Below, piece after piece: positions 3,023-41,153 of a stretch of 64,000 bases of DNA (the first letter of the stretch is position 1; every line of letters begins with the position of its first letter). This DNA comes from Escherichia phage vB_EcoA_4HA11: sequence record MN445184. One strand, 5' to 3'. Made by a program: the position numbers and the translations under genes. The notes below the pieces were generated by a model. It was not told where the DNA came from and made no database searches. It saw nothing but the letters and a program-made list of their open reading frames with translations.

Positions 3023-4138
3023 TTATGCATCCAATGTGTTCAGGCGTTGTTGGGCAGCATTATAGAATTGTTCTGCTAATTTGCAAACATTTTCAGGGCG
3101 CTGGATATTATTGGCGGCGCGGATATCTTTCTTCAAGACTTCCACCGCATCAGTAGCCACCATCTCTTCAGTGACTTCTACCTTCTCGGAAGCAACAGTA
3201 ATCGTCCGATCGATGAAGTTGTAATCGATGCATTTACAGCGCTTCAATGCGTCACAGAACTTTTCATAATGCTTGGCATTGTCACGGTTCTGTACAATCA
3301 CCTTAACGATTTGCCCTTCAATACCCAAAACATTGTTTAACCAATCGGGGTCGATCCAATTACCTTCAGTATCAGAAGACATTTGGGTGTAGTCGTATTC
3401 CACGAACCGGAACAACGTTTGTTGTTCGTTGTTGGGGATAAACAATTCCCCGCCATTCATGTCGTCTACATAGAATCCTCGGTTCGTCCCGTCTTTGTGG
3501 TCTTCCCAGGTAAGGTGATAAGGAGTCCCAATATACTGAATGTTACCTTCCATCGAACGGGTATGGAAATGTCCGGTATCCACGCGCTCGAATTTCGAAA
3601 GGAGCGCCAAGTCGATCTGACCTTTATCACATACAGAGGACTGGTACATTTTGAACCCTGCCAACTCCAGATGCGCAAAACAGTACTTGGCGTCTGTATC
3701 TTGTATCGCTTTAATGGACGCATCATAGTTCTCTTTGTTAATCCACGGCAGTAGGAGGGTCTTGACACCTTCAATCATTACTTCAGTTGGTTCGCTGTAA
3801 TAATGATAAACATCCGGTGCCAATTCATTAAGATAAGAAGGCCAGTTAATACGATTGGACTCTTCTAACGTGATATCATGGTTGCCGACGATGCCATTCC
3901 ATTTAATACCTGCTTTGCGCAGCGCTGGCGTCAATTCATCTTTCAACCAATCTTTATCGCGACCATACATGAATTTGCGAACATCAAACGTATCACCAAA
4001 TTGCCAAACTTCTTTAATATCGGCGTCAACCAATTCTGGAATAAAATAATTGATGAGATAATTCTTTATGAATTCTCGAACGTAACGGGAACCATTACGG
4101 CTCCCAATATGTAAATCGCCAATTTTAGCAATCGCCAT
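3023..4138 (-). CDS. gp47: SbcD/Mre11-like nuclease subunit (T4 gp47-like)
   Basis: 371 aa; calcineurin-like phosphoesterase motifs (GDLHIG, GNHD, GHFH); paired with SbcC-like gene. Confidence 0.85.
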   Translation of the reverse strand: MAIAKIGDLHIGSRNGSRYVREFIKNYLINYFIPELVDADIKEVWQFGDTFDVRKFMYGRDKDWLKDELTPALRKAGIKWNGIVGNHDITLEESNRINWPSYLNELAPDVYHYYSEPTEVMIEGVKTLLLPWINKENYDASIKAIQDTDAKYCFAHLELAGFKMYQSSVCDKGQIDLALLSKFERVDTGHFHTRSMEGNIQYIGTPYHLTWEDHKDGTNRGFYVDDMNGGELFIPNNEQQTLFRFVEYDYTQMSSDTEGNWIDPDWLNNVLGIEGQIVKVIVQNRDNAKHYEKFCDALKRCKCIDYNFIDRTITVASEKVEVTEEMVATDAVEVLKKDIRAANNIQRPENVCKLAEQFYNAAQQRLNTLDA

Positions 4139-8118: not shown

Positions 8119-8433
8119 TTACTGGCCGTTGGCAGCAGCTTTCAGACCTTCACCGACTTTGAATTTAACTACATTTTTCGCTTCGATCTGGATCTGTTGT
8201 CCGTTCAGCGGGTTGCGGCCAGTGCGCGCTTCCTGATGTTTAACTTCGAACGCGCCGAAGCCTACGAATTGGACAGATTGGCCAGCCGCGACTGCAGTTT
8301 TCACGCCATTGATAAAAGATGCAACGATTTTCTCAGCTTCGCCTTTGGTCATACCCTGGGTTTGAGCGATGTGGGCGATAAAATCAGTACGGTTCATTCG
8401 GATTACTCCAGTTGGTTGTTTACGATGTTTCAC
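8119..8433 (-). CDS. HU/IHF-family DNA-binding protein
   Basis: MNRTDFIAHIAQ...GFGAFEV...RTGRNPLNGQ matches the HU fold signature; probable true start ATG 8397 with GGAG SD (92 aa). Confidence 0.85.
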   Translation of the reverse strand: MKHRKQPTGVIRMNRTDFIAHIAQTQGMTKGEAEKIVASFINGVKTAVAAGQSVQFVGFGAFEVKHQEARTGRNPLNGQQIQIEAKNVVKFKVGEGLKAAANGQ

Positions 8434-8480
8434 TACAAGAGGACTACAGCTTACCTAACAAATATTATTGAATAAAGCGT

Positions 8481-9275
8481 TTATTTGCCGACGTTCAGCA
8501 TTTTACCTGAGCCGGATCCGTCAACGATTAGAGTACATTTCCCACTGTTGGCGCAAGATTGCAACACCATGTTATATTCGTGTTGTAAATATTCAGGTGT
8601 CAGAGATGTCGTCAGTTTCTGATTCGCCTTGGCTTCTTGGTCGCGAATTTCAACGTTCTTTCTTGCTGTATCCAAACGTTTGTCGGCCATGACATTATCA
8701 CGGATAGATTGCTCAATCGAAGGATCTGTCAGCGCCTTTTTCACCAACACACGTGTGATTGTGAACATGCCAGGCGCAGCAGTTTCCAATTGCTGCTGGG
8801 TGCGTTCCTTGATCATCTTTTCTAACTCAGCCCGTTGGGTGTGAATTGTCATAGAATCCAAAGAGGAAACGGCGTCCATCGTTGAGGATGCTGCGGCGGT
8901 TTTAACCAGGTTGAATCCCACCGCTATCGTGCCGTCACCGAGTTCAGCGCTCTGACCTGCAAATTTGGTATGGAACCAAGGAACCTTCGCGACGTTCGGT
9001 GTGTAATAAACGTCCACATCCAGATCTTCCAAGGTCAGGTTGTCTTTGGCCTTTGGCGTCATTTTCGTCAGACTCACGACGGCTTCTTTAGTCGTATAGA
9101 CATCTACACTTGAAACGAAACTGGTGTAGATACCTGCGGTTACAGGGTTCATGTCCACTTCACCCCATTGGGTTCGAACACCGACGTTTCCTTCATCGAT
9201 AACACCGCCGCAGCCCGAAAGAAGGCTTGCCGCTAGGACCATAATTGCGCCAAATACCAGTTTCTTGAACATCAA
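8481..9275 (-). CDS. lipoprotein, possibly SPFH/band-7-like
   Basis: Signal peptide plus lipobox MFKKLVFGAIMVLAASLLSGC; ATG at 9272; domain assignment is tentative. Confidence 0.55.
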   Translation of the reverse strand: MMFKKLVFGAIMVLAASLLSGCGGVIDEGNVGVRTQWGEVDMNPVTAGIYTSFVSSVDVYTTKEAVVSLTKMTPKAKDNLTLEDLDVDVYYTPNVAKVPWFHTKFAGQSAELGDGTIAVGFNLVKTAAASSTMDAVSSLDSMTIHTQRAELEKMIKERTQQQLETAAPGMFTITRVLVKKALTDPSIEQSIRDNVMADKRLDTARKNVEIRDQEAKANQKLTTSLTPEYLQHEYNMVLQSCANSGKCTLIVDGSGSGKMLNVGK

Positions 9276-9490
9276 TGTACTCCTTCAAAAATGTAAATAT
9301 AAGCACCCAATGTGAGTGCAGTTATTGTAACCGAAGAAATCAGCAGTAGGAAAGTTACTCTCACCCGTTTGCGCCAACGTTTACTTCGGTAGATTTTAGT
9401 CTCTTTCAAGTATTTGAAAAAGAAAAATAAAATGAATGTTGAAATTACGAATATGAACAGATAACGGATTAACCCGATCATATTTCCCAC
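9272..9490 (-). CDS. small membrane protein
   Basis: 72-aa ORF with two hydrophobic segments; stop overlaps the start of the lipoprotein gene. Confidence 0.4.
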   Translation of the reverse strand: MGNMIGLIRYLFIFVISTFILFFFFKYLKETKIYRSKRWRKRVRVTFLLLISSVTITALTLGAYIYIFEGVH

Positions 9491-9798
9491 CCTGTGCTAC
9501 GCAGATGATCAAAATAATCGTTGAGTTCGTCAATATCTTCGATATCAACCCAACGATCATCCAGTCCCATATCATTTAGATCTTCTTCAGTCAGATCATG
9601 TTGATAAATCTGAATGCCCGAAACATTACAATAATCCGGCTTGATATTGTTGTTGAACTGGAACAAATCATAATCAGCCAGAGTATTCTTCAGGCGCTGC
9701 GCTTCTTCAAATGTTGGAACCTCAACATGAAAAGCGATCCCAGGAACCTGGGGAATATGCCAAACACGAAATTTAAGTTCAAATGGTTTATTCGACAT
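9478..9798 (-). CDS. hypothetical acidic protein
   Basis: 106-aa ORF, Asp/Glu-rich C-terminus. Confidence 0.4.
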   Translation of the reverse strand: MSNKPFELKFRVWHIPQVPGIAFHVEVPTFEEAQRLKNTLADYDLFQFNNNIKPDYCNVSGIQIYQHDLTEEDLNDMGLDDRWVDIEDIDELNDYFDHLRSTGWEI

Positions 9799-10117
9799 GG
9801 GGTTCTCCCTGAGACAGTATGGTTTTCATCTGTTCACGCGTGATAATTGTTTCAACAAGATTCTCGTCAATCATCATTTCGTTTAACAGTTCACAACCCA
9901 GCACGTGTGGTCGTGCCATATACGGCATGGCGTTGAGTTTTTCTTCTATGTCAAGAACGCGCTTGACGGTCAGACCCATAGAAGAAAAGGGAACAGGATA
10001 AAAGAATGAAATAATCTGGTTATCCATCCCGTTTGAAAATCTTACCAACAATACATCACACCATACGCCGGACATATTACACCTCCAGACGGTTACAATG
10101 AGAAAGCGCGTTATCAA
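9788..10117 (-). CDS. hypothetical protein
   Basis: 109-aa ORF in operon-like tandem array. Confidence 0.4.
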   Translation of the reverse strand: MITRFLIVTVWRCNMSGVWCDVLLVRFSNGMDNQIISFFYPVPFSSMGLTVKRVLDIEEKLNAMPYMARPHVLGCELLNEMMIDENLVETIITREQMKTILSQGEPHVE

Positions 10118-10745
10118 TCTGTTCCCGAGACAGATATTCCAACGGGTTGCGAGAATACGCTTCTAACAGCAGCAGTTGGAGCACAGCGCGATTACGAGTT
10201 TCACTCTCCATCATGATACCGTTCATATGTGGTGAACGGGCTGTCCATACAACATACTGACCTAAATCGTCGTTGGCAGTCAGGCTAATGCGAAACTGAT
10301 TGCACAATTTGTCGATTAACACATAATCATGTGTGAACGTCCCTTCAGTTTTCCAGCTTGATTTCTTCACCTGAAGAGCTTCACCACGAGTTCTGAATTC
10401 TAACGTCACTCCATGAGTTTCATTGTCGAAATGAACAACTCTCTGAGTTTCATTTATTAGAGTCCGGTTCATATTATATGCGAAGAAACGGGCGTCGATC
10501 TCCCTATTGCTCATGGAATTAAAATCGATCGGCCAAAATCGTGCACGCATAATCGCGCCTTCTGGCAATACAATTAGTCCATTTTCACGGGAGACATAGC
10601 AAAGACGTTTAACTGCAGGGTCAGGATGTTCCACACAATAAACGGAAATTCCAGTGGGAAGGATAGCGTGGGCGACAACACCAGATCTTTCAAAATATAA
10701 ATTACCCTGGTCAGCCCCGATGATAATACGGCTCTTGTTGTTCAT
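10077..10745 (-). CDS. hypothetical protein
   Basis: 222-aa ORF. Confidence 0.45.
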   Translation of the reverse strand: MNNKSRIIIGADQGNLYFERSGVVAHAILPTGISVYCVEHPDPAVKRLCYVSRENGLIVLPEGAIMRARFWPIDFNSMSNREIDARFFAYNMNRTLINETQRVVHFDNETHGVTLEFRTRGEALQVKKSSWKTEGTFTHDYVLIDKLCNQFRISLTANDDLGQYVVWTARSPHMNGIMMESETRNRAVLQLLLLEAYSRNPLEYLSREQIDNALSHCNRLEV

Positions 10746-10801
10746 AATATAGATCTCTCAAATAAAGGCGGTTTAATAATAACCGCCCTTGTATTATAGA
10801 A

Positions 10802-11605
10802 TTATTTTATATCACCGACATACATGTTCAAACTTTCATCCCATTCTAAACGAACACGAATAGTGCCAGAATCGTTTGGGAAAGACAATTTGTCGCACAT
10901 ATGACGATTTGCATATGTTCCGCTCTTATTAACAGGATAATCTTTACCTTCACCGATTGCGAATCGTTTGAAGTTCCGACTCACCATCATATTGATGTTA
11001 GTCCACTGCAATTGTTCCCGTAGGGTTTTGCACAATATAATCTTCCCATTAGACCGGAAAGACACGAATAAATCATTTGGTGAAGAAAATCGTCTTTCTT
11101 GCGGACATAACTGCCTGATTGAAATAAATTCAGATTCTTCTTTATTCTCAACCGGAGACTTCACGGGTTCTTCTTTTCGTTTTTCTGCATATTGCTCAAC
11201 AGCCTTTTGGCTGACAGGCGGCAGATCAATAGAAGGGGAGATGACTGCTGGCTTAATGACTGGTGAAGTACGAGCAGCAACAAGTTTTTCCTGAGCTTCC
11301 AGAATTCTCTCTTGGCGAGATTTTGGTCGAGTATCAACCTTGGAGCTGAAATCACAAACCGTAACCCAGTCACCCTGGTCGTTGCGCTTGGCAACCAGAG
11401 TTAATTTGTAAATGATGCCCTGTAGCTTGCTTTCACGCATAGTGTCTGCAAACCAGAAAGCACACCCTTGCTCAAATTTTTCAGCGAAGACCACGCGACC
11501 ACCATCATGGATCAGAATAACCTTTGCTTTGCTAGGTGCGAACATTTTATTCTTTTCAACGATCGCCTCAGCGATCTTTTTGGTAATGATCATCACGAAA
11601 TACAC
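10802..11605 (-). CDS. hypothetical two-domain protein with Pro/Lys/Glu-rich linker
   Basis: 267-aa ORF. Confidence 0.45.
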   Translation of the reverse strand: MYFVMIITKKIAEAIVEKNKMFAPSKAKVILIHDGGRVVFAEKFEQGCAFWFADTMRESKLQGIIYKLTLVAKRNDQGDWVTVCDFSSKVDTRPKSRQERILEAQEKLVAARTSPVIKPAVISPSIDLPPVSQKAVEQYAEKRKEEPVKSPVENKEESEFISIRQLCPQERRFSSPNDLFVSFRSNGKIILCKTLREQLQWTNINMMVSRNFKRFAIGEGKDYPVNKSGTYANRHMCDKLSFPNDSGTIRVRLEWDESLNMYVGDIK

Positions 11606-11642
11606 CTTTCAGTTCAATGGGGAATAAAATTTTAACCTGAAA

Positions 11643-11963
11643 CTATCTTTGATTTCCAACGAAATTAGTTGCAATTTCACGGCACATAGTCAAATCTTTA
11701 ATAGTCTGTTTGCTGTTGTCTGCAGCAGATTCCATCATGGGTAAATCAAGCGCATTCTCTATCTGGTCCACACTATAGAGATCAAGGCGTTTCAATTCAC
11801 CTTCATAATCAGATAAAAGGATTGATGTGTCCTTATCATCCGGATGAAATTGTTGATATGTAGACAACCAAGCAGCACAAATATTCAACTTACTGGCCTG
11901 AGCTGCCAATACTTGGGAAGACATGAAAGCGTACAGGAATAACAATAAGATTTTGATTTTCAT
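11643..11963 (-). CDS. secreted hypothetical protein
   Basis: N-terminal signal peptide MKIKILLLFLYAFMSSQVLAAQA. Confidence 0.45.
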   Translation of the reverse strand: MKIKILLLFLYAFMSSQVLAAQASKLNICAAWLSTYQQFHPDDKDTSILLSDYEGELKRLDLYSVDQIENALDLPMMESAADNSKQTIKDLTMCREIATNFVGNQR

Positions 11964-12814
11964 CTTTCGTTCTCCTTCATCATATTATCGCAGTCAATTC
12001 TTGTTTGCTTGAGTTCACGCGAAAGCCTTGGGTCGTCTAGATTGACAGACAAATTAGTGGAAAGATCTTTCAAACCATTCTGAACACGGTCTTCATAATA
12101 ATGATCATTTTCCACTAGCCATGCTCTCAGGCCAAGGGCGCGAGTCCGCCATTCCTTTTTCAAACGTTGATCTGATTCTTGATCAGCACTATATTCAAAT
12201 ACTCGGATACATTGGTTGCCATCATTGATGAGATCCAGCTGACGTCGGCCAACCTGCACACCTTTTTGTAATGCTGGAGAAGGAAGAGAACGGCACTGTC
12301 TTACGGTCATTCGTCCTTGTGTGCCCATACGACCAGTCATAATAAGATCGCCAGCCTCCATGCCTCCTCGGTTAAATTCTTTGTCGTTCATATATCCTTT
12401 CAGGTTGAACGCGCCTTGCTTATATCGATTAAACTCAATACCAGCATTTACAACGGCATCTGTGACATTACCTGTGGCCCAGAGTTCAGCAAAGTTCTCT
12501 ATGGAACCAGTTTTGTCTATAGCGACGGCTTGGGAGAACCCAGCACAGTAGGAAAGATCAGACCACAGTTTTTCACCCGTGGAATTCAGCTTGGCGGTGG
12601 CAGGAAGTGCCAGACCAGCCAGCACAACCCCGATGATTAAACGTTTCATGGTGATTCTCCTTATTTCATTGGATAAAATGATAGGGCTGTCACCATGTTG
12701 AGTAAAGGGTTTCAATAAACTATCGTATTCAGAAACGGGTATCGCTGACCGTTCTGTATCGCACACCCTGAAACTGTTTAGCGAGTTTAACAAATTCCAT
12801 CGCTGGCAAATCAA
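11960..12814 (-). CDS. secreted hypothetical protein; probable true start ATG 12649
   Basis: Signal peptide MKRLIIGVVLAGLALPATA begins at internal Met (12649) with GGAGA SD; the track's N-terminal extension is probably not translated. Confidence 0.5.
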   Translation of the reverse strand: MICQRWNLLNSLNSFRVCDTERSAIPVSEYDSLLKPFTQHGDSPIILSNEIRRITMKRLIIGVVLAGLALPATAKLNSTGEKLWSDLSYCAGFSQAVAIDKTGSIENFAELWATGNVTDAVVNAGIEFNRYKQGAFNLKGYMNDKEFNRGGMEAGDLIMTGRMGTQGRMTVRQCRSLPSPALQKGVQVGRRQLDLINDGNQCIRVFEYSADQESDQRLKKEWRTRALGLRAWLVENDHYYEDRVQNGLKDLSTNLSVNLDDPRLSRELKQTRIDCDNMMKENER

Positions 12815-13178
12815 CTTTGTAGACCTTCATGCGCTGTTTGCCGTCCATGTTCAACGCAGCGACAAATCGGTGAGAACCGTCAACAACGTAATTGTCAGAA
12901 GATACCCAAACTCGACCCATAGGTTTCTTATTTCTGATCTGCTTCATGATCTTCCAGACCTTCATTTTATTGATTTCGTTCTGGGTAAGACGAAGCATTT
13001 TGATGGGCACTTGCGCAGCATCTATAGACACGCCGTTGTCTTCAAGATATTTGTGAAAATCTTCTTGTTTGTCGGCATCGATTTGCGGCATAGAAGAACG
13101 AGAAAGCCCGAGGTTCCCAACAGGGATCCTCAGGCCATTTATGATATTCATCCAGTCAATAAAGGATGTAAGGAACAT
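12729..13178 (-). CDS. ParB-like nuclease domain protein
   Basis: Motif YVVDGSHRFVAAL resembles the ParB/Srx DGxHR...AA core. Confidence 0.4.
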   Translation of the reverse strand: MFLTSFIDWMNIINGLRIPVGNLGLSRSSMPQIDADKQEDFHKYLEDNGVSIDAAQVPIKMLRLTQNEINKMKVWKIMKQIRNKKPMGRVWVSSDNYVVDGSHRFVAALNMDGKQRMKVYKVDLPAMEFVKLAKQFQGVRYRTVSDTRF

Positions 13179-13371
13179 GACACACCTCGGGATATAGGGT
13201 TATCCCTTAGTTAGTTCATCCACCTATCTTTTCTTCTCGATTCTTGTCGTTCCCTCCGCTTATGTTCAAACCGGAATAACAGATAGAAGAAATTACCACC
13301 CAATACGAAGATGACTCCGATTATCACCAGGATACCCTTTACAATTTCCCAAATTAATTCATTATCCAAAG

Positions 13372-29980: not shown

Positions 29981-30478
29981 TTATTGTTTATCAATTTCGC
30001 GGGTGACGCGAGTCGGAGTCAGTTTCAAATATTTGAACGTGACAGTCGTGACCAGTTGGGGAACCGCAGCATCCACATCCACCAATACGTTGTCCAAAGC
30101 TGTGGGACGGGCTTCTTCCAACAACAATTGTAGACCAACAGGGCGATTCATGTTATCAAGAAGGTCGATGGTGATGTCACGGCTAACAGCTAAATCAGAT
30201 CCAGCATTAGACGCAATCCAATTGTAAATCTGTTCCCAGTTGTACCAACTCTCATCGATAACGAACGTAAATACGATGGGGTCATACGTGAGACGTTCTG
30301 AAGGTATGGAGTTGAGCACATCGCCAGGGGATGGTCCCTCGATACCTTCAGAATACACTCCAGGAATACTGAAGTCATGTATTGAACGAGTAAGCAATAT
30401 CAGGTCTCCGATAGTTAAGCGCCATTTATCGGAAGCCGCGAAATTAGGATTTTCGTTTTTGAATTGTACACCTGTCAT
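29981..30478 (-). CDS. hypothetical protein
   Basis: 165-aa ORF with ATG start. Confidence 0.45.
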   Translation of the reverse strand: MTGVQFKNENPNFAASDKWRLTIGDLILLTRSIHDFSIPGVYSEGIEGPSPGDVLNSIPSERLTYDPIVFTFVIDESWYNWEQIYNWIASNAGSDLAVSRDITIDLLDNMNRPVGLQLLLEEARPTALDNVLVDVDAAVPQLVTTVTFKYLKLTPTRVTREIDKQ

Positions 30479-30541
30479 GTTAGCACCTTTGCTGTGGAGA
30501 ACGTTTTAGTGTTCCTGATACGCGGATTCAGAAAATGGATC

Positions 30542-31162
30542 ATGACGATGATAATGGTGCTTGCACTCACAAGTTGCCGTATCTTTGTCACGTCCGTCAT
30601 TTCTGTAACCGACCTCTGGGATCCTGAAATCAGAACCATACCTGTTAACATCTCAGCCGACATTGATAAATGCAATAAAAATATTCTGAATCAAGTAGTA
30701 TCTGATTTTCAGAACTTCCAGACTCTTCAAGCTGTTGGTTGTTTTGATGATAACAACCAGTCACTGAGACCATACTGGAAAACCACGATTCCCCTATTGA
30801 GGAAAGGTGACGAAGGAAAGATCCCATATCTATCCGCAAGTATTTATTACTCTCAGAATAATAGCATCATAGCGACTTTCAATCCTTCTTTCTTTGACAA
30901 ACTCAGAAGGAATACTCAAGCAAGGGACGTCGAAATCACCAGAGACGTTGCAATATCATTTCAGATAGTTAATAACACCAAATCTCCGATTCGAATTGCC
31001 ACTCAGGGTGTTTTCGTTAATGGATCTGCTGTGGGTAATGAAATGAACATCTATGAAATAAGACCAGGCGGTAAAGTATGGATTCGAATGAGTGATGTTG
31101 GGGTGAACTCCCTGGTGATGGAAGGTATCGAACCAGTGGGAGTTCTCCCCGCTAGACATTGA
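30542..31162 (+). CDS. putative lipoprotein (plus strand, divergent from neighbour)
   Basis: Lipobox-like LTSC after hydrophobic MTMIMVLA; track ORF begins at TTG 30464 which would give a longer signal with RGFRKW n-region. Confidence 0.4.
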   Translation: MTMIMVLALTSCRIFVTSVISVTDLWDPEIRTIPVNISADIDKCNKNILNQVVSDFQNFQTLQAVGCFDDNNQSLRPYWKTTIPLLRKGDEGKIPYLSASIYYSQNNSIIATFNPSFFDKLRRNTQARDVEITRDVAISFQIVNNTKSPIRIATQGVFVNGSAVGNEMNIYEIRPGGKVWIRMSDVGVNSLVMEGIEPVGVLPARH

Positions 31163-38869: not shown

Positions 38870-40552
38870 TTAAATACTATCGTCTGTTGAACCAGAGAAT
38901 GGGATAGTCTCAGGTTTAAACTTCAACGGACTAACATCTGAACCGCTATAATTGCCAGTTTCATCTGCTTGAACCTTCGGATAGAGACCTTTCTTCTTCT
39001 CTTCCGCGATCTTCGTTTGTTGTTCTTTAACTTCTTCATCAGACATACGCAATACATTTCTCATGACGTAGTCTATGGAGAAAATGGAACCAACAAATGG
39101 CTCAACAGTGTTCAATGAAGCCAGACGATCATTCAAGATAGCGTTTTCTTGTTGTTCACGAATGTAACTATCGGATGTGAATTCAAACTTTATAAACGGT
39201 TTGATCTTCTCATTCCAATCCTTTTCATCCGTAACGCCTTTCAAAATTAACTGGCGGCGCAAGAATTCCATAAAGAAATGGGAGTAACGACGACGTAACC
39301 CAGCACAGAACTTGCTGAAACGCAGCTCTTCCTGTGTAATCTCCGCGAGGTTGGAACCCCCAATGTTAATAGATCCTTCCTCTTGGAGGCGGCTCTTAGG
39401 GATCATTAGAGCATCATAGAGTTTTTCACGGAAATAGTTCACGTGATCCATTTCGCCCAATTGATTCCCACCCCCAACAGTCGCAATCTCTGTAGCATTC
39501 TGACCTTCGCGGCGCGGCAACCAATAATCCTCTGCAATACCCATAAGATGGGCATTACCTGTTATCTTACCAGTGGTGCGGTCATATGCGTTGCGGTTTT
39601 TGAATTTACCCATCATCATGGTCATGTATTCTTCAGCAGATTTCTTACCGAGAGTACCGACGTCAAGATAGAATGCGCGTTTCTCAGGGGCGCGAGTGAT
39701 GGCATAAATTACAGTCGCATCTTCAGTCGTAACCAGGTTGTTCAACGGACGGATAGCAGGATTTAAAAGGCCTGGGACAATACCATTGGCCAATGGCTCT
39801 TCACCACTATCGATGTAAACAATGCTTTCGTCATCGAATACGAGTTCTTGTTGTGAAGGTTGGAAGTTTTGAGAAGTACCTGATTGACCAGTGAATTGGT
39901 TTCGATTATAATTCGGATTGTAATAGTATTTCAGCGTTACAGATTCGATCGCTTCTATACCACCTTCACGCATTGCCTTTTCAACGATGTACACAGGACG
40001 AATACAACGAGAATCCAGCATGACCAATTTCTTGATCCCGCCCTTCTTATTCGTTGGGTCAACAATCACATGATACGCTTGTCGACCATCTACATACCAT
40101 TTCCGAATCTTTTGATACGCCGTATTTTCAAAATCCATCAAATGAATCACTTCTTTGAAACATTCGGTGATAGATTCTTTGACTGATTCAGAAATACCAT
40201 CAACTTTGTCAAGATTGACTGTCACCGGAGTTTCGTCTTCCTCACATGTGACAACGTCATTAACAATGATGTCCACAGCTTTGCGGATTTCTGGCTGCTG
40301 GGCCATGGACTGATATTCTTCCACAACTGTTTTAACGCTGAGAAGTTCACTCTCAACGCCAACATAGTTGTAGGTGTTTGCACCGCCCTGAAGGATTATA
40401 GAACCGTCTTGAGCATCGTCCAGAGCAACAACTGTCGCCTTGGTGAGCAACAATTCATCTTGTTTTTGGGCTAACTTATCGGTGTCGACTTTGGCATTGA
40501 CTAAACCGCCGCCACCAAACAAACCGAAGAACCCCATGCCGTATCCAGCCAT
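38870..40552 (-). CDS. gp20: portal protein (gp20-like)
   Basis: DATVIYAITRAPEKRAFYLDVG...AEDYWLPRREGQNATEI... closely parallels T4 gp20 ([22 protein letters not shown]...TEDYWLQRRDGKAVTEV). Confidence 0.9.
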   Translation of the reverse strand: MAGYGMGFFGLFGGGGLVNAKVDTDKLAQKQDELLLTKATVVALDDAQDGSIILQGGANTYNYVGVESELLSVKTVVEEYQSMAQQPEIRKAVDIIVNDVVTCEEDETPVTVNLDKVDGISESVKESITECFKEVIHLMDFENTAYQKIRKWYVDGRQAYHVIVDPTNKKGGIKKLVMLDSRCIRPVYIVEKAMREGGIEAIESVTLKYYYNPNYNRNQFTGQSGTSQNFQPSQQELVFDDESIVYIDSGEEPLANGIVPGLLNPAIRPLNNLVTTEDATVIYAITRAPEKRAFYLDVGTLGKKSAEEYMTMMMGKFKNRNAYDRTTGKITGNAHLMGIAEDYWLPRREGQNATEIATVGGGNQLGEMDHVNYFREKLYDALMIPKSRLQEEGSINIGGSNLAEITQEELRFSKFCAGLRRRYSHFFMEFLRRQLILKGVTDEKDWNEKIKPFIKFEFTSDSYIREQQENAILNDRLASLNTVEPFVGSIFSIDYVMRNVLRMSDEEVKEQQTKIAEEKKKGLYPKVQADETGNYSGSDVSPLKFKPETIPFSGSTDDSI

Positions 40553-40576
40553 GATCTAAGTCCTCAACGTTTTCTT

Positions 40577-40605
40577 GTAATTAGTGAGGGGGAATAACAT
40601 TCCCC
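40577..40605 (-). promoter_or_regulatory. hairpin GGGGGAAT-GUU-AUUCCCCC followed by ACTAATTA motif variant upstream of portal gene
   Basis: 8-bp stem 40587..40605 plus motif 40577..40584. Confidence 0.35.
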
Positions 40606-40619
40606 CAGCACCGAGGACA

Positions 40620-41153
40620 TTACAATGACTTGTCAGAAACGGCTTGGAAATAACGCAAGTCGACAGTGAACTGTGTGTAAGAGTCCATTGCCGACATATC
40701 GAGTTCCAGTTGGCCGAGGTTTTGAGGCCAGCCGCCCTGTAAAGTCCATGTCTTAGTCACGTTGTCATTCGCGTCCAGAAGTTCCATGATGATATCACGG
40801 AAATAATCATCTGGATTCGCGCTGGCGCGGTTGTTTTCACTACCGTTGATGAATTGCTGCCACACTTCAAAAGCATTGTATGGAGCGTTGTTCACCACGT
40901 TAATGAACGTCACAGGAAGCGCTTCGAAACGACGATCCCCTGGGAACGGAAGTTCACGACCACCCCAGGGCACCAGAATTTCGCCCAGCTGACCTGTTGG
41001 GGTGTTGGTGGTTACAGCCAGCAAGGACACGTCACGAATTGTGTCGGAACCAGCAACAAAAGAAGGAAAGTTTACAGTCACACGCCAGCGGTGTTGGCGT
41101 TGTACGCCGCCCCCTCGTGACATGGCTGCGCGAAACTCATTGACTGTCGCCAT
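40620..41153 (-). CDS. gp19: tail tube protein (gp19-like)
   Basis: 177 aa, between sheath and portal genes as in T4. Confidence 0.65.
   Translation of the reverse strand: MATVNEFRAAMSRGGGVQRQHRWRVTVNFPSFVAGSDTIRDVSLLAVTTNTPTGQLGEILVPWGGRELPFPGDRRFEALPVTFINVVNNAPYNAFEVWQQFINGSENNRASANPDDYFRDIIMELLDANDNVTKTWTLQGGWPQNLGQLELDMSAMDSYTQFTVDLRYFQAVSDKSL

What the first reader, a model, noticed from the sequence alone, without database searches (positions are those of the whole stretch)
8481..12649. Run of envelope-targeted proteins in the accessory region (lipoprotein, membrane protein, two signal-peptide proteins)
Within about 4 kb a lytic phage encodes a lipoprotein with lipobox LLSGC and a possible SPFH-like body (8481..9272), a 72-aa membrane protein, and two proteins with cleavable signal peptides (11643..11963 and 11960..12649). 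Exported or periplasmic phage proteins are candidates for superinfection exclusion, receptor masking or envelope remodelling. None has an assignable function by eye.
Basis: partly seen in the sequence, partly recalled or inferred. Interest (0 to 1): 0.5.

Follow-up and report, generated by a model that had tools for sequence, protein, structure and literature searches.

The report
Two exported-protein modules in a Kuttervirus
This stretch of a ViI-like Salmonella phage really does encode four envelope-targeted proteins, but they form two separate gene pairs: a core pair of secreted periplasmic proteins that databases probably mislabel as "spanins", and an optional pair made of a tiny membrane hairpin and a stomatin-like lipoprotein that recurs in many unrelated phages. 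The function of both pairs is unknown.

Summary
The window is about 99% identical to Kuttervirus phage dinky. All four genes are real, have Shine-Dalgarno sites, and carry the stated signals.

**Module A (11960-12649 and 11643-11963):**
- It is a translationally coupled pair (ATGA overlap), present in all 270 related isolate genomes and as conserved as the adjacent helicase.
- GenBank, RefSeq and PHROGs label the pair i-/o-spanin, following phage Marshall.
- The "o-spanin" here has no lipobox. Only 7 of 37 family clusters have one, and three distant lineages have none.
- Every member of both families keeps an AxA-type signal-peptidase-I site.
- Both proteins carry invariant cysteines.
- I read them as soluble periplasmic proteins, not canonical spanins. 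No fold or family match gives a function.

**Module B (9272-9481 and 8481-9272):**
- It is a 69-72 aa two-TM hairpin overlapping by 1 nt an LSGC lipoprotein with a Band_7/stomatin-like body.
- It is accessory in this phage group (about 63% of isolates; the two genes are always gained or lost together).
- The same hairpin-plus-SPFH-lipoprotein pair occurs in 24 of 25 distinct unrelated phage contigs.
- I read it as a minimal analogue of NfeD-stomatin operons that probably forms a cage on a periplasmic membrane face.

Superinfection exclusion remains possible for either module but is untested. Interest is moderate.

The parts
11960..12649 (-). p229, the first gene of module A. It is a Sec-exported protein with a signal peptide MKRLIIGVVLAGLALPATA|K and a mature domain of about 210 aa that is predicted mostly helical. 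It has 4 invariant cysteines. Databases annotate it as 'i-spanin'.
   Evidence: ORF, RBS and start. Alignment of 30 homologues with A17/A19 and C35/C119/C147/C220 invariant. The family is very narrow (9 clusters at 50% identity among 1.8 billion representatives). Distant homologues P0068 and P0069 also have SPase-I signal peptides. It is present in 270 isolate genomes at 80% identity or more. No Pfam, NCBIfam, PADLOC or PDB sequence hit. The AF2 model failed (pLDDT 43.6).
11643..11963 (-). p106, the second gene of module A. Its start overlaps the p229 stop (ATGA). The signal peptide is MKIKILLLFLYAFMSSQVLA|A, and the mature protein is an ~85-aa helical bundle with 2 invariant cysteines (C29, C94). 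Databases annotate it as 'o-spanin / Rz-like spanin / putative lipoprotein'.
9272..9490 (-). tm72, the first gene of module B: a two-TM hairpin membrane protein. It is 72 aa from the GTG at 9490, or more probably 69 aa from the ATG at 9481, which overlaps the gp17 stop as ATGA. It has a K/R-rich loop and a short acidic C-terminal motif (..FEGVH).
   Evidence: phrog_11680. It is always present or absent together with the SPFH gene in 19 loci. An equivalent 55-72 aa hairpin lies upstream of the SPFH lipoprotein gene in 24 of 25 distinct unrelated contigs. An HMM built from 24 foreign hairpins finds tm72 as the only hit (E=0.0056) among 2,470 six-frame ORFs.
8481..9272 (-). The SPFH lipoprotein, the second gene of module B. 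Its ATG shares 1 nt with the hairpin stop (TGATG). It has the lipobox LSGC with Gly at +2, an SPFH/Band_7 domain, a coiled-coil and a C-terminal CxxxxxC-beta segment.
   Evidence: Pfam PF01145 E=1.2e-12. phrog_200 'lipoprotein' E=3e-58. Lipobox and the C241/C247 region are conserved family-wide. The family profile matches human stomatin cage structures over residues 152-249 (E about 1e-3). It was detected by mass spectrometry in the Vi01-like phage Sajous1 (PMC10892097).
9478..9798 (-). A homologue of P22 gp17 (the anti-exclusion protein). It is cytoplasmic and part of the same tightly packed accessory cassette.
   Evidence: Pfam PF17420 E=1.2e-49. phrog_1510. Discussed for Kuttervirus in PMC9409062.
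9788..10075 (-). A DUF7425 protein with no export signal, part of the accessory cassette.
   Evidence: Pfam PF24200 E=1.4e-51. Start and RBS.
10077..10745 (-). p222, a hypothetical protein with no export signal. It is variable among relatives.
   Evidence: phrog_5426. No TM segment. Only 34-44% identical, or absent, in many relatives.
10802..11593 (-). p267/263, a hypothetical protein with no export signal. It separates module A from the accessory cassette.
   Evidence: phrog_3828. No TM segment. Divergent (34-100% identity) among relatives.
12729..13178 (-). p149, a ParB-N/PLxRFG-like protein annotated as a 'structural protein'. It is the conserved upstream neighbour of module A in all lineages examined.
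   Evidence: The same neighbour is found in L068, L069 and phiEa2809.
13211..13369 (-). p52, a single-TM 52-aa membrane protein with a highly charged C-terminal tail. It is a fifth envelope protein lying just outside the given coordinates and is variably present.
   Evidence: phrog_14464 'membrane protein'. Present in 8 of 19 loci.

Best explanation
The 'run' is a juxtaposition of two independent two-gene envelope modules in a ViI-like (Kuttervirus) myovirus.

**Module A (p229 + p106).** This is a core, translationally coupled operon. Both products are exported by Sec, cleaved by signal peptidase I and disulfide-bonded. They therefore act as soluble periplasmic proteins, most simply as a heterocomplex. 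They are not a canonical i-/o-spanin pair. The membrane anchors that define spanins are missing in this phage and in most of the family. The anchors in question are a lipid-modified Cys on the small protein and an uncleaved TM helix on the large one.

The pair is as conserved as the replicative helicase across phages of Salmonella, Klebsiella, Escherichia, Dickeya and Serratia. For that reason I infer that its target is invariant across these hosts. Candidates are the phage's own periplasm-acting machinery or a universal envelope component. A phage-side example would be a Spackle-like block of the gp5-type tail lysozyme of superinfecting virions, or control of the still unidentified lysis system.

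**Module B (two-TM hairpin + SPFH lipoprotein).** This is an optional, horizontally mobile cassette. The lipoprotein is anchored by its N-terminal acyl chains to a membrane leaflet facing the periplasm. By analogy with stomatin and HflK/C, it probably oligomerises through its coiled-coil and C-terminal segment into a ring or cage. The hairpin, with its basic loop in the cytoplasm and both ends in the periplasm, would be its obligate membrane partner. It stands where NfeD stands in prokaryotic stomatin operons. The physiological outcome is not established. Candidates are membrane stabilisation, exclusion of other phages, or effects on lysis timing.

**Shown:** gene structure, export signals and their conservation, co-occurrence and synteny, family membership of the SPFH domain, and the absence of spanin-defining features.

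**Inferred:** actual cleavage, complex formation, cage formation and any infection phenotype.
For: **Identity and gene structure**
-.

**Module A**
- The ATGA or 1-nt overlap is conserved in 19 of 19 loci.
- The p106 family has a lipobox in only 7 of 37 cluster representatives and 3 of 19 loci. P0035 carries the Marshall-type signal with AGS instead of AGC. All members keep A-x-A followed by (A/T/V)P.
- Orthologues in three distant lineages (L068, L069, Erwinia phiEa2809) have unrelated SPase-I signal peptides and no lipobox.
- The p229 signal has a 12-residue h-region, then Pro, then A-x-A. The -3 and -1 Ala are invariant, and the distant homologues keep the -3/-1 rule with otherwise different signals.
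- Cysteines are invariant: 4 in p229 and 2 in p106.
- Kongari et al. 2018 list the Marshall pair as an outlier: 0 coiled-coil residues, a 206-aa periplasmic domain against about 76-103 aa for the other separated i-spanins visible in the passages retrieved, and an o-spanin with 56% helix.
- p229 is found in 270 isolate genomes, the same genera and counts as the helicase at 80% identity or more.

**Module B**
- Band_7 domain hit.
- The lipobox is conserved in the family.
- The family profile matches stomatin.
- The two genes are present together or absent together.
- The hairpin lies upstream of the SPFH gene in 24 of 25 distinct unrelated contigs, with 33-53% SPFH identity.
- The hairpin HMM is specific for tm72.
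- The L028 contig shares only the SPFH gene with Kuttervirus, which points to horizontal transfer.
Against: - No signal-peptide, lipoprotein or TM predictor was available, and there is no experimental N-terminus. The p229 N-terminal hydrophobic stretch passes a Kyte-Doolittle TM threshold, so it could be an uncleaved signal anchor.
- About 20% of p106 orthologues do carry a bona fide lipobox (Marshall type), so a spanin-like role in those phages cannot be excluded.
- I found no other spanin candidate in the whole dinky genome, and no holin is known for Kuttervirus. The phage therefore still needs some way to breach the outer membrane, and very high conservation fits an essential lysis role.
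- The p229 structure prediction failed, so its fold is untested.
- A physical p229-p106 complex and an SPFH cage are inferred, not shown.
- Gly at +2 predicts outer-membrane sorting of the lipoprotein in Enterobacteria. That makes direct contact with an inner-membrane hairpin geometrically awkward.
- The hairpin family signal is weak at the sequence level (E=0.0056).
Confidence: 0.6

Rival explanations
1. The public annotation is right: p229 is an i-spanin anchored in the inner membrane by its N-terminal helix, and p106 is the o-spanin. The complex spans the periplasm and fuses or disrupts the outer membrane as the last step of lysis.
For: - The gene order and overlap match two-component spanin architecture, with a large N-terminally hydrophobic protein followed by a small exported protein.
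- The Marshall orthologue of p106 has the lipobox LIAGC and was catalogued as a 'separated' spanin pair by Kongari et al. 2018.
- No alternative spanin candidate exists in the dinky genome.
- The pair is core and strongly conserved, as an essential lysis function would be.
- T4 spanin genes are likewise distant from the holin and endolysin genes (established knowledge).
Against: - In this window p106 has no lipobox. 30 of 37 family clusters, 16 of 19 loci and all three distant lineages lack one.
- The conserved Cys at mature position ~8 is preceded by K/T/I/M/L/V at -1 and by charged residues, which is incompatible with a lipobox.
- All members retain an SPase-I site, including those with a lipobox (AGC-VNA|AP).
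- p229 has an invariant A-x-A after a short h-region.
- No coiled-coil was predicted, and the size is atypical.
- The endolysin lies about 21 kb away.
- The annotation rests on bioinformatics only; I found no experimental support.
Confidence: 0.15
2. One reading: the exported proteins are superinfection-exclusion or receptor-masking factors. Module A would then be a functional analogue of T4 Spackle/Imm, and/or module B would block DNA entry or mask an outer-membrane receptor as T5 Llp does.
For: - Mature p106 is a ~9-10 kDa helical periplasmic protein with a conserved Cys pair (probably a disulfide). That matches the general description of T4 Spackle, which I recall rather than tested.
- The phage has a gp5-like hub/tail lysozyme that could be the target.
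- The high conservation across hosts fits a phage-encoded target.
- Module B sits in a cassette with a P22 gp17-type anti-exclusion gene and is accessory like many exclusion genes.
Against: - There is no sequence relation to Imm, Sp, Llp, Cor or any PADLOC or PHROG exclusion family.
- A strictly core, helicase-level-conserved gene is unusual for an exclusion factor.
- No phenotype data exist.
Confidence: 0.25
3. The SPFH lipoprotein acts on the host FtsH/HflKC axis, or as a general membrane-stress buffer. It would either mimic or compete with HflK/C, or prolong membrane integrity and so increase burst size. On this view it is not an anti-phage factor.
For: - It belongs to the SPFH superfamily, and JGI annotators label homologues 'regulator of protease activity HflC'.
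- The stomatin-like coiled-coil and C-terminal region suggest a cage.
- The HflC idea was raised for Burkholderia phage CSP3 (PMC10269572).
- A prophage SPFH protein of Pasteurella is exported in outer-membrane vesicles (PMC9872710). I did not test whether it is homologous to this family.
Against: - It is closest to generic Band_7/stomatin, with no HflK/HflC-specific model hit.
- A lipid anchor with Gly at +2 predicts the outer membrane, away from FtsH.
- The phage is virulent, so there is no CII-type lysogeny decision.
- The papers retrieved here that comment on phage SPFH proteins treat their role as unresolved; PMC13239085 says so explicitly.
Confidence: 0.15

Closest known systems
Two-component spanins (lambda Rz/Rz1; T4 PseT.3/PseT.2; 'separated' class of Kongari et al. 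2018)
   Same: Module A has adjacent, overlapping genes. The larger protein, with an N-terminal hydrophobic segment, comes first and a small exported protein second. Both have periplasmic cysteines. The Marshall orthologue of the small protein has a lipobox and is listed in the spanin catalogue.
   Different: In this window the small protein has an SPase-I signal and no lipobox, as do most of the family and all distant lineages. The large protein has a conserved A-x-A cleavage site, no predicted coiled-coil, and a periplasmic domain about twice the usual length. The small protein is a well-folded helical bundle rather than a short, unstructured Pro-rich peptide.
T4 Spackle (gp61.3) and T4 RI, small periplasmic regulators of T4-like phages
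   Same: They are small proteins exported to the periplasm by a virulent myovirus, helical, with an intramolecular Cys pair, and encoded among early/middle genes.
Prokaryotic stomatin/SPFH-NfeD operons (e.g. Pyrococcus PH1510/PH1511, E. coli YbbJ-QmcA) and the HflK/C cage
   Same: Module B is a two-gene operon with a small membrane protein directly upstream of, and overlapping, an SPFH gene. It has an SPFH domain followed by a coiled-coil and a C-terminal segment that aligns with stomatin. It is predicted to sit on a membrane surface, on the periplasmic side as HflK/C does.
   Different: The anchor is an N-terminal lipid (lipobox) instead of a TM helix or hairpin. The partner is a bare 55-72 aa two-TM hairpin with no NfeD OB-fold and no protease domain. 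The module is carried by phages and is horizontally mobile.
Phage lipoprotein exclusion factors (T5 Llp, phi80/N15 Cor)
   Same: They are phage-encoded lipoproteins made during lytic growth and are accessory.
   Different: Llp and Cor are ~60-80 aa receptor blockers. This is a 263-aa SPFH oligomeriser with an obligate membrane partner, and there is no homology.
P22 gp17 (PF17420)
   Same: The gene at 9478-9798 is a clear member (E=1e-49) and lies immediately upstream of module B.
   Different: It is cytoplasmic and not envelope-targeted. It is present in some relatives that lack module B.

Membership tests
Two-component spanin: o-spanin | An N-terminal lipoprotein signal with a lipobox ([LVI][ASTVI][GAS]C), so that the mature protein is lipid-anchored in the outer membrane. 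| tested here: not met
   p106 reads MKIKILLLFLYAFMSSQVLA|AQASKLNIC and has no lipobox. 30 of 37 family clusters, 16 of 19 loci and the L068, L069 and phiEa2809 orthologues lack one. The lipobox is present only in the Marshall-type minority.
Two-component spanin: i-spanin | An uncleaved N-terminal TM helix (type II topology). | tested here: inconclusive
   The hydrophobic stretch passes a Kyte-Doolittle threshold. However, the h-region is only about 12 residues, followed by Pro and an invariant A-x-A. Distant homologues have different but canonical cleavable signals. No predictor or experiment was available.
Two-component spanin: i-spanin | A periplasmic domain dominated by coiled-coil helices, typically ~80-130 aa. 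| tested here: not met
   The Kongari 2018 tables give 0 coiled-coil residues, 35% helix and a 206-aa periplasmic domain for the 89%-identical Marshall orthologue. The AF2 model here was too poor to add anything.
Two-component spanin | Adjacent, overlapping or embedded gene pair with the i-spanin gene first. | tested here: met
   An ATGA or 1-nt overlap in 19 of 19 loci and in the distant lineages.
Two-component spanin | Loss of the gene blocks outer-membrane disruption, giving spherical cells in the presence of divalent cations. | not testable with these tools
   This needs phage genetics. I found no published experiment for Ackermannviridae.
SPFH / Band 7 superfamily (PF01145) | An SPFH domain scoring above the curated threshold. 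| tested here: met
   48.7 bits against a cut-off of 23.6, E=1.2e-12, residues 25-210. All listed homologues carry PF01145.
SPFH / Band 7 superfamily | A coiled-coil plus C-terminal oligomerisation region that forms ring or cage assemblies. | tested here: inconclusive
   The family profile aligns residues 152-249 to human stomatin, whose PDB entries hold 16 or 64 chains (consistent with the 16-mer cage I recall), at E about 1e-3.
SPFH-NfeD operon | A partner protein with an NfeD domain (OB-fold, with or without a ClpP-like protease). | tested here: not met
   The upstream partner is a 69-72 aa two-TM hairpin with no Pfam or NCBIfam NfeD hit. Only the position and overlap resemble NfeD operons.
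Bacterial lipoproteins (Lgt/LspA substrates) | A basic n-region, a hydrophobic h-region and the lipobox L-[AS]-[GA]-C within the first ~35 residues. | tested here: met
   The sequence is MFKKLVFGAIMVLAASLLSG-C22. L19, G21 and C22 are at least 90% conserved in the family. Acylation itself was not tested.
T4 Spackle / T4 RI / T4 Imm (superinfection exclusion and lysis-inhibition proteins) | Sequence or fold similarity to these families. | tested here: not met
Known anti-phage defence proteins (PADLOC-DB) | A match to any defence-system model. | tested here: not met
   None of the 10 proteins in 8119-13369 gave a hit at E<=0.01.

The most novel reading that the evidence does not exclude
The pair labelled as spanins throughout Ackermannviridae records would be a previously unrecognised, family-core system of two soluble periplasmic proteins with a new small helical fold. 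On that reading these widely used biocontrol phages have neither a recognisable holin nor a canonical spanin, and they either breach or protect the envelope by an undescribed periplasmic mechanism.

Separately, the hairpin + SPFH-lipoprotein cassette would be a mobile phage module that builds a stomatin-like cage on a periplasmic membrane face. That would be a new, minimal NfeD-independent type of SPFH operon.
Probability: 0.35. Interest if true: 0.65.

Novelty: new variant of a known kind. Interest (0 to 1): 0.4.

Why it matters
Kutterviruses (ViI, CBA120, Det7, SFP10 and relatives) are among the phages most often proposed for Salmonella and E. coli O157 biocontrol, yet their lysis system is uncharacterised.

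**If the 'spanin' label is wrong**
- It has already propagated into RefSeq, UniRef and PHROG 3843.
- Lysis-gene inventories for this family are then misleading.
- A gene pair as conserved as the helicase has no known role. That makes it a direct target for knockout and interaction studies, testing the spanin phenotype, Spackle-like protection and lysis timing.

**The hairpin-SPFH-lipoprotein pairing**
- It gives a concrete handle on why so many unrelated phages carry SPFH genes. The genome papers retrieved here note these genes without explaining them.
- It offers a small two-protein system for studying SPFH cage assembly on a periplasmic leaflet.

Tried and rejected
- **p229 structure.** AF2 on 30 homologues gave pLDDT 43.6. 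No fold search was run on it because the result would be meaningless.
- **Sequence searches of p229 and p106.** Searches against Pfam, NCBIfam, PADLOC and PDB sequences (single sequences and profiles) gave nothing usable.
- **Exhaustive HMMER search for p229.** It found only 9 clusters. An alignment-seeded scan of IMG/VR found no members beyond the 19 close loci.
- **Are p229 and p106 paralogues?** They share a 'KLN...CA[GA][FW]' motif, but hhalign gave a probability of 7%. Rejected.
- **Longer TTG start for p229.** It would give 284 aa with an internal TM, as in the T4 holin T. Rejected because it has no RBS, it overlaps p149, and all annotations and homologues start at MKR.
- **Alternative spanins.** A six-frame lipobox scan of the whole dinky genome found only the SPFH protein, gp039 and gp192. 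Neither of the latter has a C-terminal TM or an adjacent type II membrane partner.
- **Are the ~110-kb SPFH-bearing contigs phage-plasmids?** No match in PLSDB. Rejected.
- **Promoter and terminator scan.** It gave only weak consensus matches and was not used.
- **SPFH single sequence against PDB.** No hit. Only the family profile reached stomatin.

Full report
**What the window is.** Bases 8400-12900 are 98-99% identical to many Kuttervirus genomes (Ackermannviridae; ViI-like Salmonella and E. coli myoviruses), for example phage dinky MT074475 57856-62356. All genes from about 8.1 to 17.3 kb are on the minus strand. In order of transcription the region reads:
- p149 (12729-13178)
- p229 (11960-12649)
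- p106 (11643-11963)
- p267 (10802-11593/11605)
- p222 (10077-10745)
- DUF7425 (9788-10075)
- gp17-like (9478-9798)
- tm72 (9272-9481/9490)
- SPFH lipoprotein (8481-9272)
- HU (8119-8433)
- helicase

GenBank and RefSeq records of close relatives annotate these genes as 'i-spanin', 'o-spanin / Rz-like spanin / putative lipoprotein', 'superinfection exclusion protein' and 'SPFH domain band 7 family protein / lipoprotein'. All starts have Shine-Dalgarno sequences. Three junctions are stop/start overlaps: p229/p106 (ATGA), gp17/tm72 (ATGA) and tm72/SPFH (TGATG).

**Check of the observation.**
- The SPFH protein starts MFKKLVFGAIMVLAASLLSG-C and hits Pfam Band_7 well above threshold.
- tm72 has two hydrophobic segments around a loop with seven K/R residues.
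- p106 and p229 have textbook n/h/c signal peptides ending VLA|A and ATA|K.
- A fifth small membrane protein, p52, lies just upstream at 13211-13369.
- In a crude gene call of the whole 64-kb window, proteins with hydrophobic segments are concentrated here (5 within 9 consecutive genes, permutation P about 0.04).

No SignalP or LipoP was available. Cleavage is therefore inferred from the sequence rules and, more strongly, from their conservation.

**Module A: how the spanin label arose.** The label traces to phage Marshall, which Kongari et al. 2018 catalogued as a 'separated' i-/o-spanin pair. The Marshall small protein does have a lipobox (MKCKILLLMVLIAGC). The comparative picture contradicts a lipid anchor for the family as a whole:
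- Among 19 IMG/VR loci, only 3 p106 orthologues have a lipobox.
- Among 37 cluster representatives from 5.8 billion proteins, only 7 do. One sequence (P0035) has the Marshall-type signal with Ser in place of the Cys.
- The signal region is hypervariable (33% mean identity, several unrelated types with indels), while the mature part is 77% identical.
- Every sequence, including those with a lipobox, keeps A-x-A immediately before a conserved (A/T/V)P..LNxC(A/V)AW start of the mature protein.
- The conserved Cys29 cannot be a lipobox Cys, because its -1 residue is I/T/M/K/L/V and charged residues precede it.

**Module A: distant lineages.** Three distant lineages carry the same pair with unrelated SPase-I signal peptides on both proteins and no lipobox:
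- a 156-kb food-metagenome phage (L068, p229 38% identical);
- contig L069 (34% identical);
- Erwinia phage phiEa2809, where the large protein is shortened to 165 aa.

In p229 the -3 and -1 alanines are invariant across 30 homologues, and all four cysteines are invariant. Kongari's own tables show the Marshall pair as an outlier: zero coiled-coil residues, a 206-aa periplasmic domain, and a 56% helical 'o-spanin'.

**Module A: conclusion.** The defining o-spanin feature was tested and is not met here. The i-spanin anchor is doubtful and the coiled-coil is absent. Only the gene architecture is spanin-like. I conclude that both products are soluble, disulfide-bonded periplasmic proteins.

**What module A might do.**
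- The p229 model failed.
- No family, defence-model or PDB sequence match exists.
- The two proteins are not detectable paralogues.
- tblastn finds p229 in 270 isolate genomes at 80% identity or more (Salmonella 164, Klebsiella 44, Escherichia 28, Dickeya 19, Shigella 6 and others). These are the same genera and counts as the neighbouring helicase at 80% identity or more.

The pair is therefore core and under purifying selection comparable to a replication enzyme. That argues for a target shared by all these phage-host systems. The target would be either the phage's own periplasm-acting components (the gp5-like tail lysozyme, the endolysin, or an unknown holin) or a universal envelope structure. 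No holin is known for Kuttervirus. My genome-wide lipobox scan found no alternative spanin. A non-canonical lysis role therefore stays open, alongside a Spackle-like protective role. I cannot discriminate between them with the tools at hand.

**Module B: the SPFH family.** The SPFH protein belongs to a widespread family of ~260-aa proteins (217 hits). The lipobox and a C-terminal CxxxxxC are conserved, and the +2 residue is never Asp in the sampled alignment. The family profile aligns its coiled-coil and C-terminal part with human stomatin cage structures.

**Module B: distribution in the Kuttervirus group.** The module is accessory.
- SPFH and tm72 are present together in 9 of 19 loci and absent together in 10 of 19.
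- SPFH is found in 169 of about 270 isolates at 95% identity or more.
- Marshall lacks the whole p222-to-SPFH block.

**Module B: the hairpin partner outside the Kuttervirus group.** Contigs whose SPFH is only 33-53% identical include a 108-kb E. coli-associated contig, a Cupriavidus contig, ~110-kb soil contigs and Erwinia phages. In 24 of 25 distinct loci a 55-72 aa ORF with the same hairpin design lies upstream of the lipoprotein gene. In 23 it is directly adjacent, and in L057 it lies about 200 nt upstream. The shared design is TM1, a basic loop, TM2, and a short C-terminal (D/E)(H/R/G) motif. The one exception is a variant whose SPFH has a TM anchor instead of a lipobox.

An HMM built from 24 foreign hairpins retrieves tm72 as the only hit among 2,470 six-frame ORFs (E=0.0056). 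The L028 contig shares nothing with Kuttervirus except the SPFH gene, which indicates horizontal spread of the cassette.

The arrangement mirrors NfeD-stomatin operons, but the partner has no NfeD domain. The genome papers retrieved here that comment on phage SPFH genes do not establish a function. I found no description of the hairpin partner within the limited searches possible.

**Relation between the modules.** In L068 the order is p149-p229-p106-hairpin-SPFH-...-HU. In phiEa2809 the same genes are separated by two small ORFs. The neighbourhood is therefore old. In this window four cytoplasmic genes have been inserted between the modules, including the P22 gp17-type anti-exclusion gene (PF17420, E=1e-49). 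Module A persists where module B is absent, so the two are functionally separable.

**Verdict.**
- The functional interpretation is untested.
- The existing spanin annotation is probably wrong for this phage.
- The SPFH gene has a conserved, previously unremarked membrane partner.

The features are real and conserved, but they lie within known kinds of things: exported phage proteins and SPFH operons. I score interest at 0.4 and classify the finding as a new variant of a known kind.

Noticed in passing
window 8481-10745 compared with L004 (Marshall) and L009-L027: The interval between p106/p267 and the HU gene is a gene-content hotspot. Marshall lacks p222, DUF7425, gp17, tm72 and SPFH altogether. 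Other relatives carry gp17 without SPFH. p222 and p267 drop to 34-65% identity while the flanking genes stay above 80%.
   Followed up: partly
window 9478-9798 and 9788-10075: A clear homologue of P22 gp17 (PF17420, E=1e-49; in P22, needed to escape exclusion by Fels-type prophages) overlaps a DUF7425 gene by 11 nt, and its stop overlaps the tm72 start (ATGA). It is therefore co-expressed with module B.
   Followed up: partly
window 13211-13369: A 52-aa single-TM protein (phrog_14464) has a very charged C-terminal tail (KRRERQESRRKDRWMN). This is a holin-like or small-exclusion-protein design. It is present in only 8 of 19 relatives.
   Followed up: no
window 11643-11963; alignment A1: The signal peptide of p106 exists in at least five unrelated versions with indels (33% mean identity), attached to a 77%-identical mature protein. 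This suggests repeated replacement of the 5' end of the gene, and one version creates a lipobox.
   Followed up: partly
hit H26, OR844945.1: A 7.9-kb record named 'Enterococcus phage Efm 3-10' is 99.6% identical at protein level to the Kuttervirus SPFH gene. It is almost certainly a mislabelled or contaminant record. A 'Pseudomonas' record also appears among the near-identical hits, and a 'Yersinia' record among the nucleotide and p229 hits.
   Followed up: no
L028, L030, L031 and L042-L066: Many SPFH-hairpin contigs are 107-114 kb long and share local synteny, with an RNase T gene 2-4 genes downstream. This looks like an uncultured phage group with no isolate relative and no PLSDB plasmid match.
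   Followed up: partly
L069 2745-3077: In this distant relative a third secreted protein (110 aa, signal MKLSNIFLAVVLMSPLSTFA|A, two Cys) follows the p229/p106 homologues.
   Followed up: no
L089 (phiEa2809) 3048-3545: The p229 homologue in Erwinia phage phiEa2809 is only 165 aa, matching the N-terminal half, yet it is still followed by the p106 homologue with a 4-nt overlap. The C-terminal half of p229 therefore appears dispensable or replaced in that lineage.
   Followed up: no
window 30464-31162 (= dinky gp039, 40134-40748): Another predicted lipoprotein lies on the opposite strand among structural genes (MIMVLALTSC..., 204 aa, 'putative conserved lipoprotein'). Outside the window, dinky gp192 is a 114-aa Cys-rich lipoprotein next to the DNA polymerase gene. 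Neither looks like a spanin.
   Followed up: partly
window 8119-8433: the ORF listing starts the HU-like gene at a GTG (104 aa). The ATG at 8397 has a better RBS (GGAG) and matches the 92-aa annotation in relatives.
   Followed up: no
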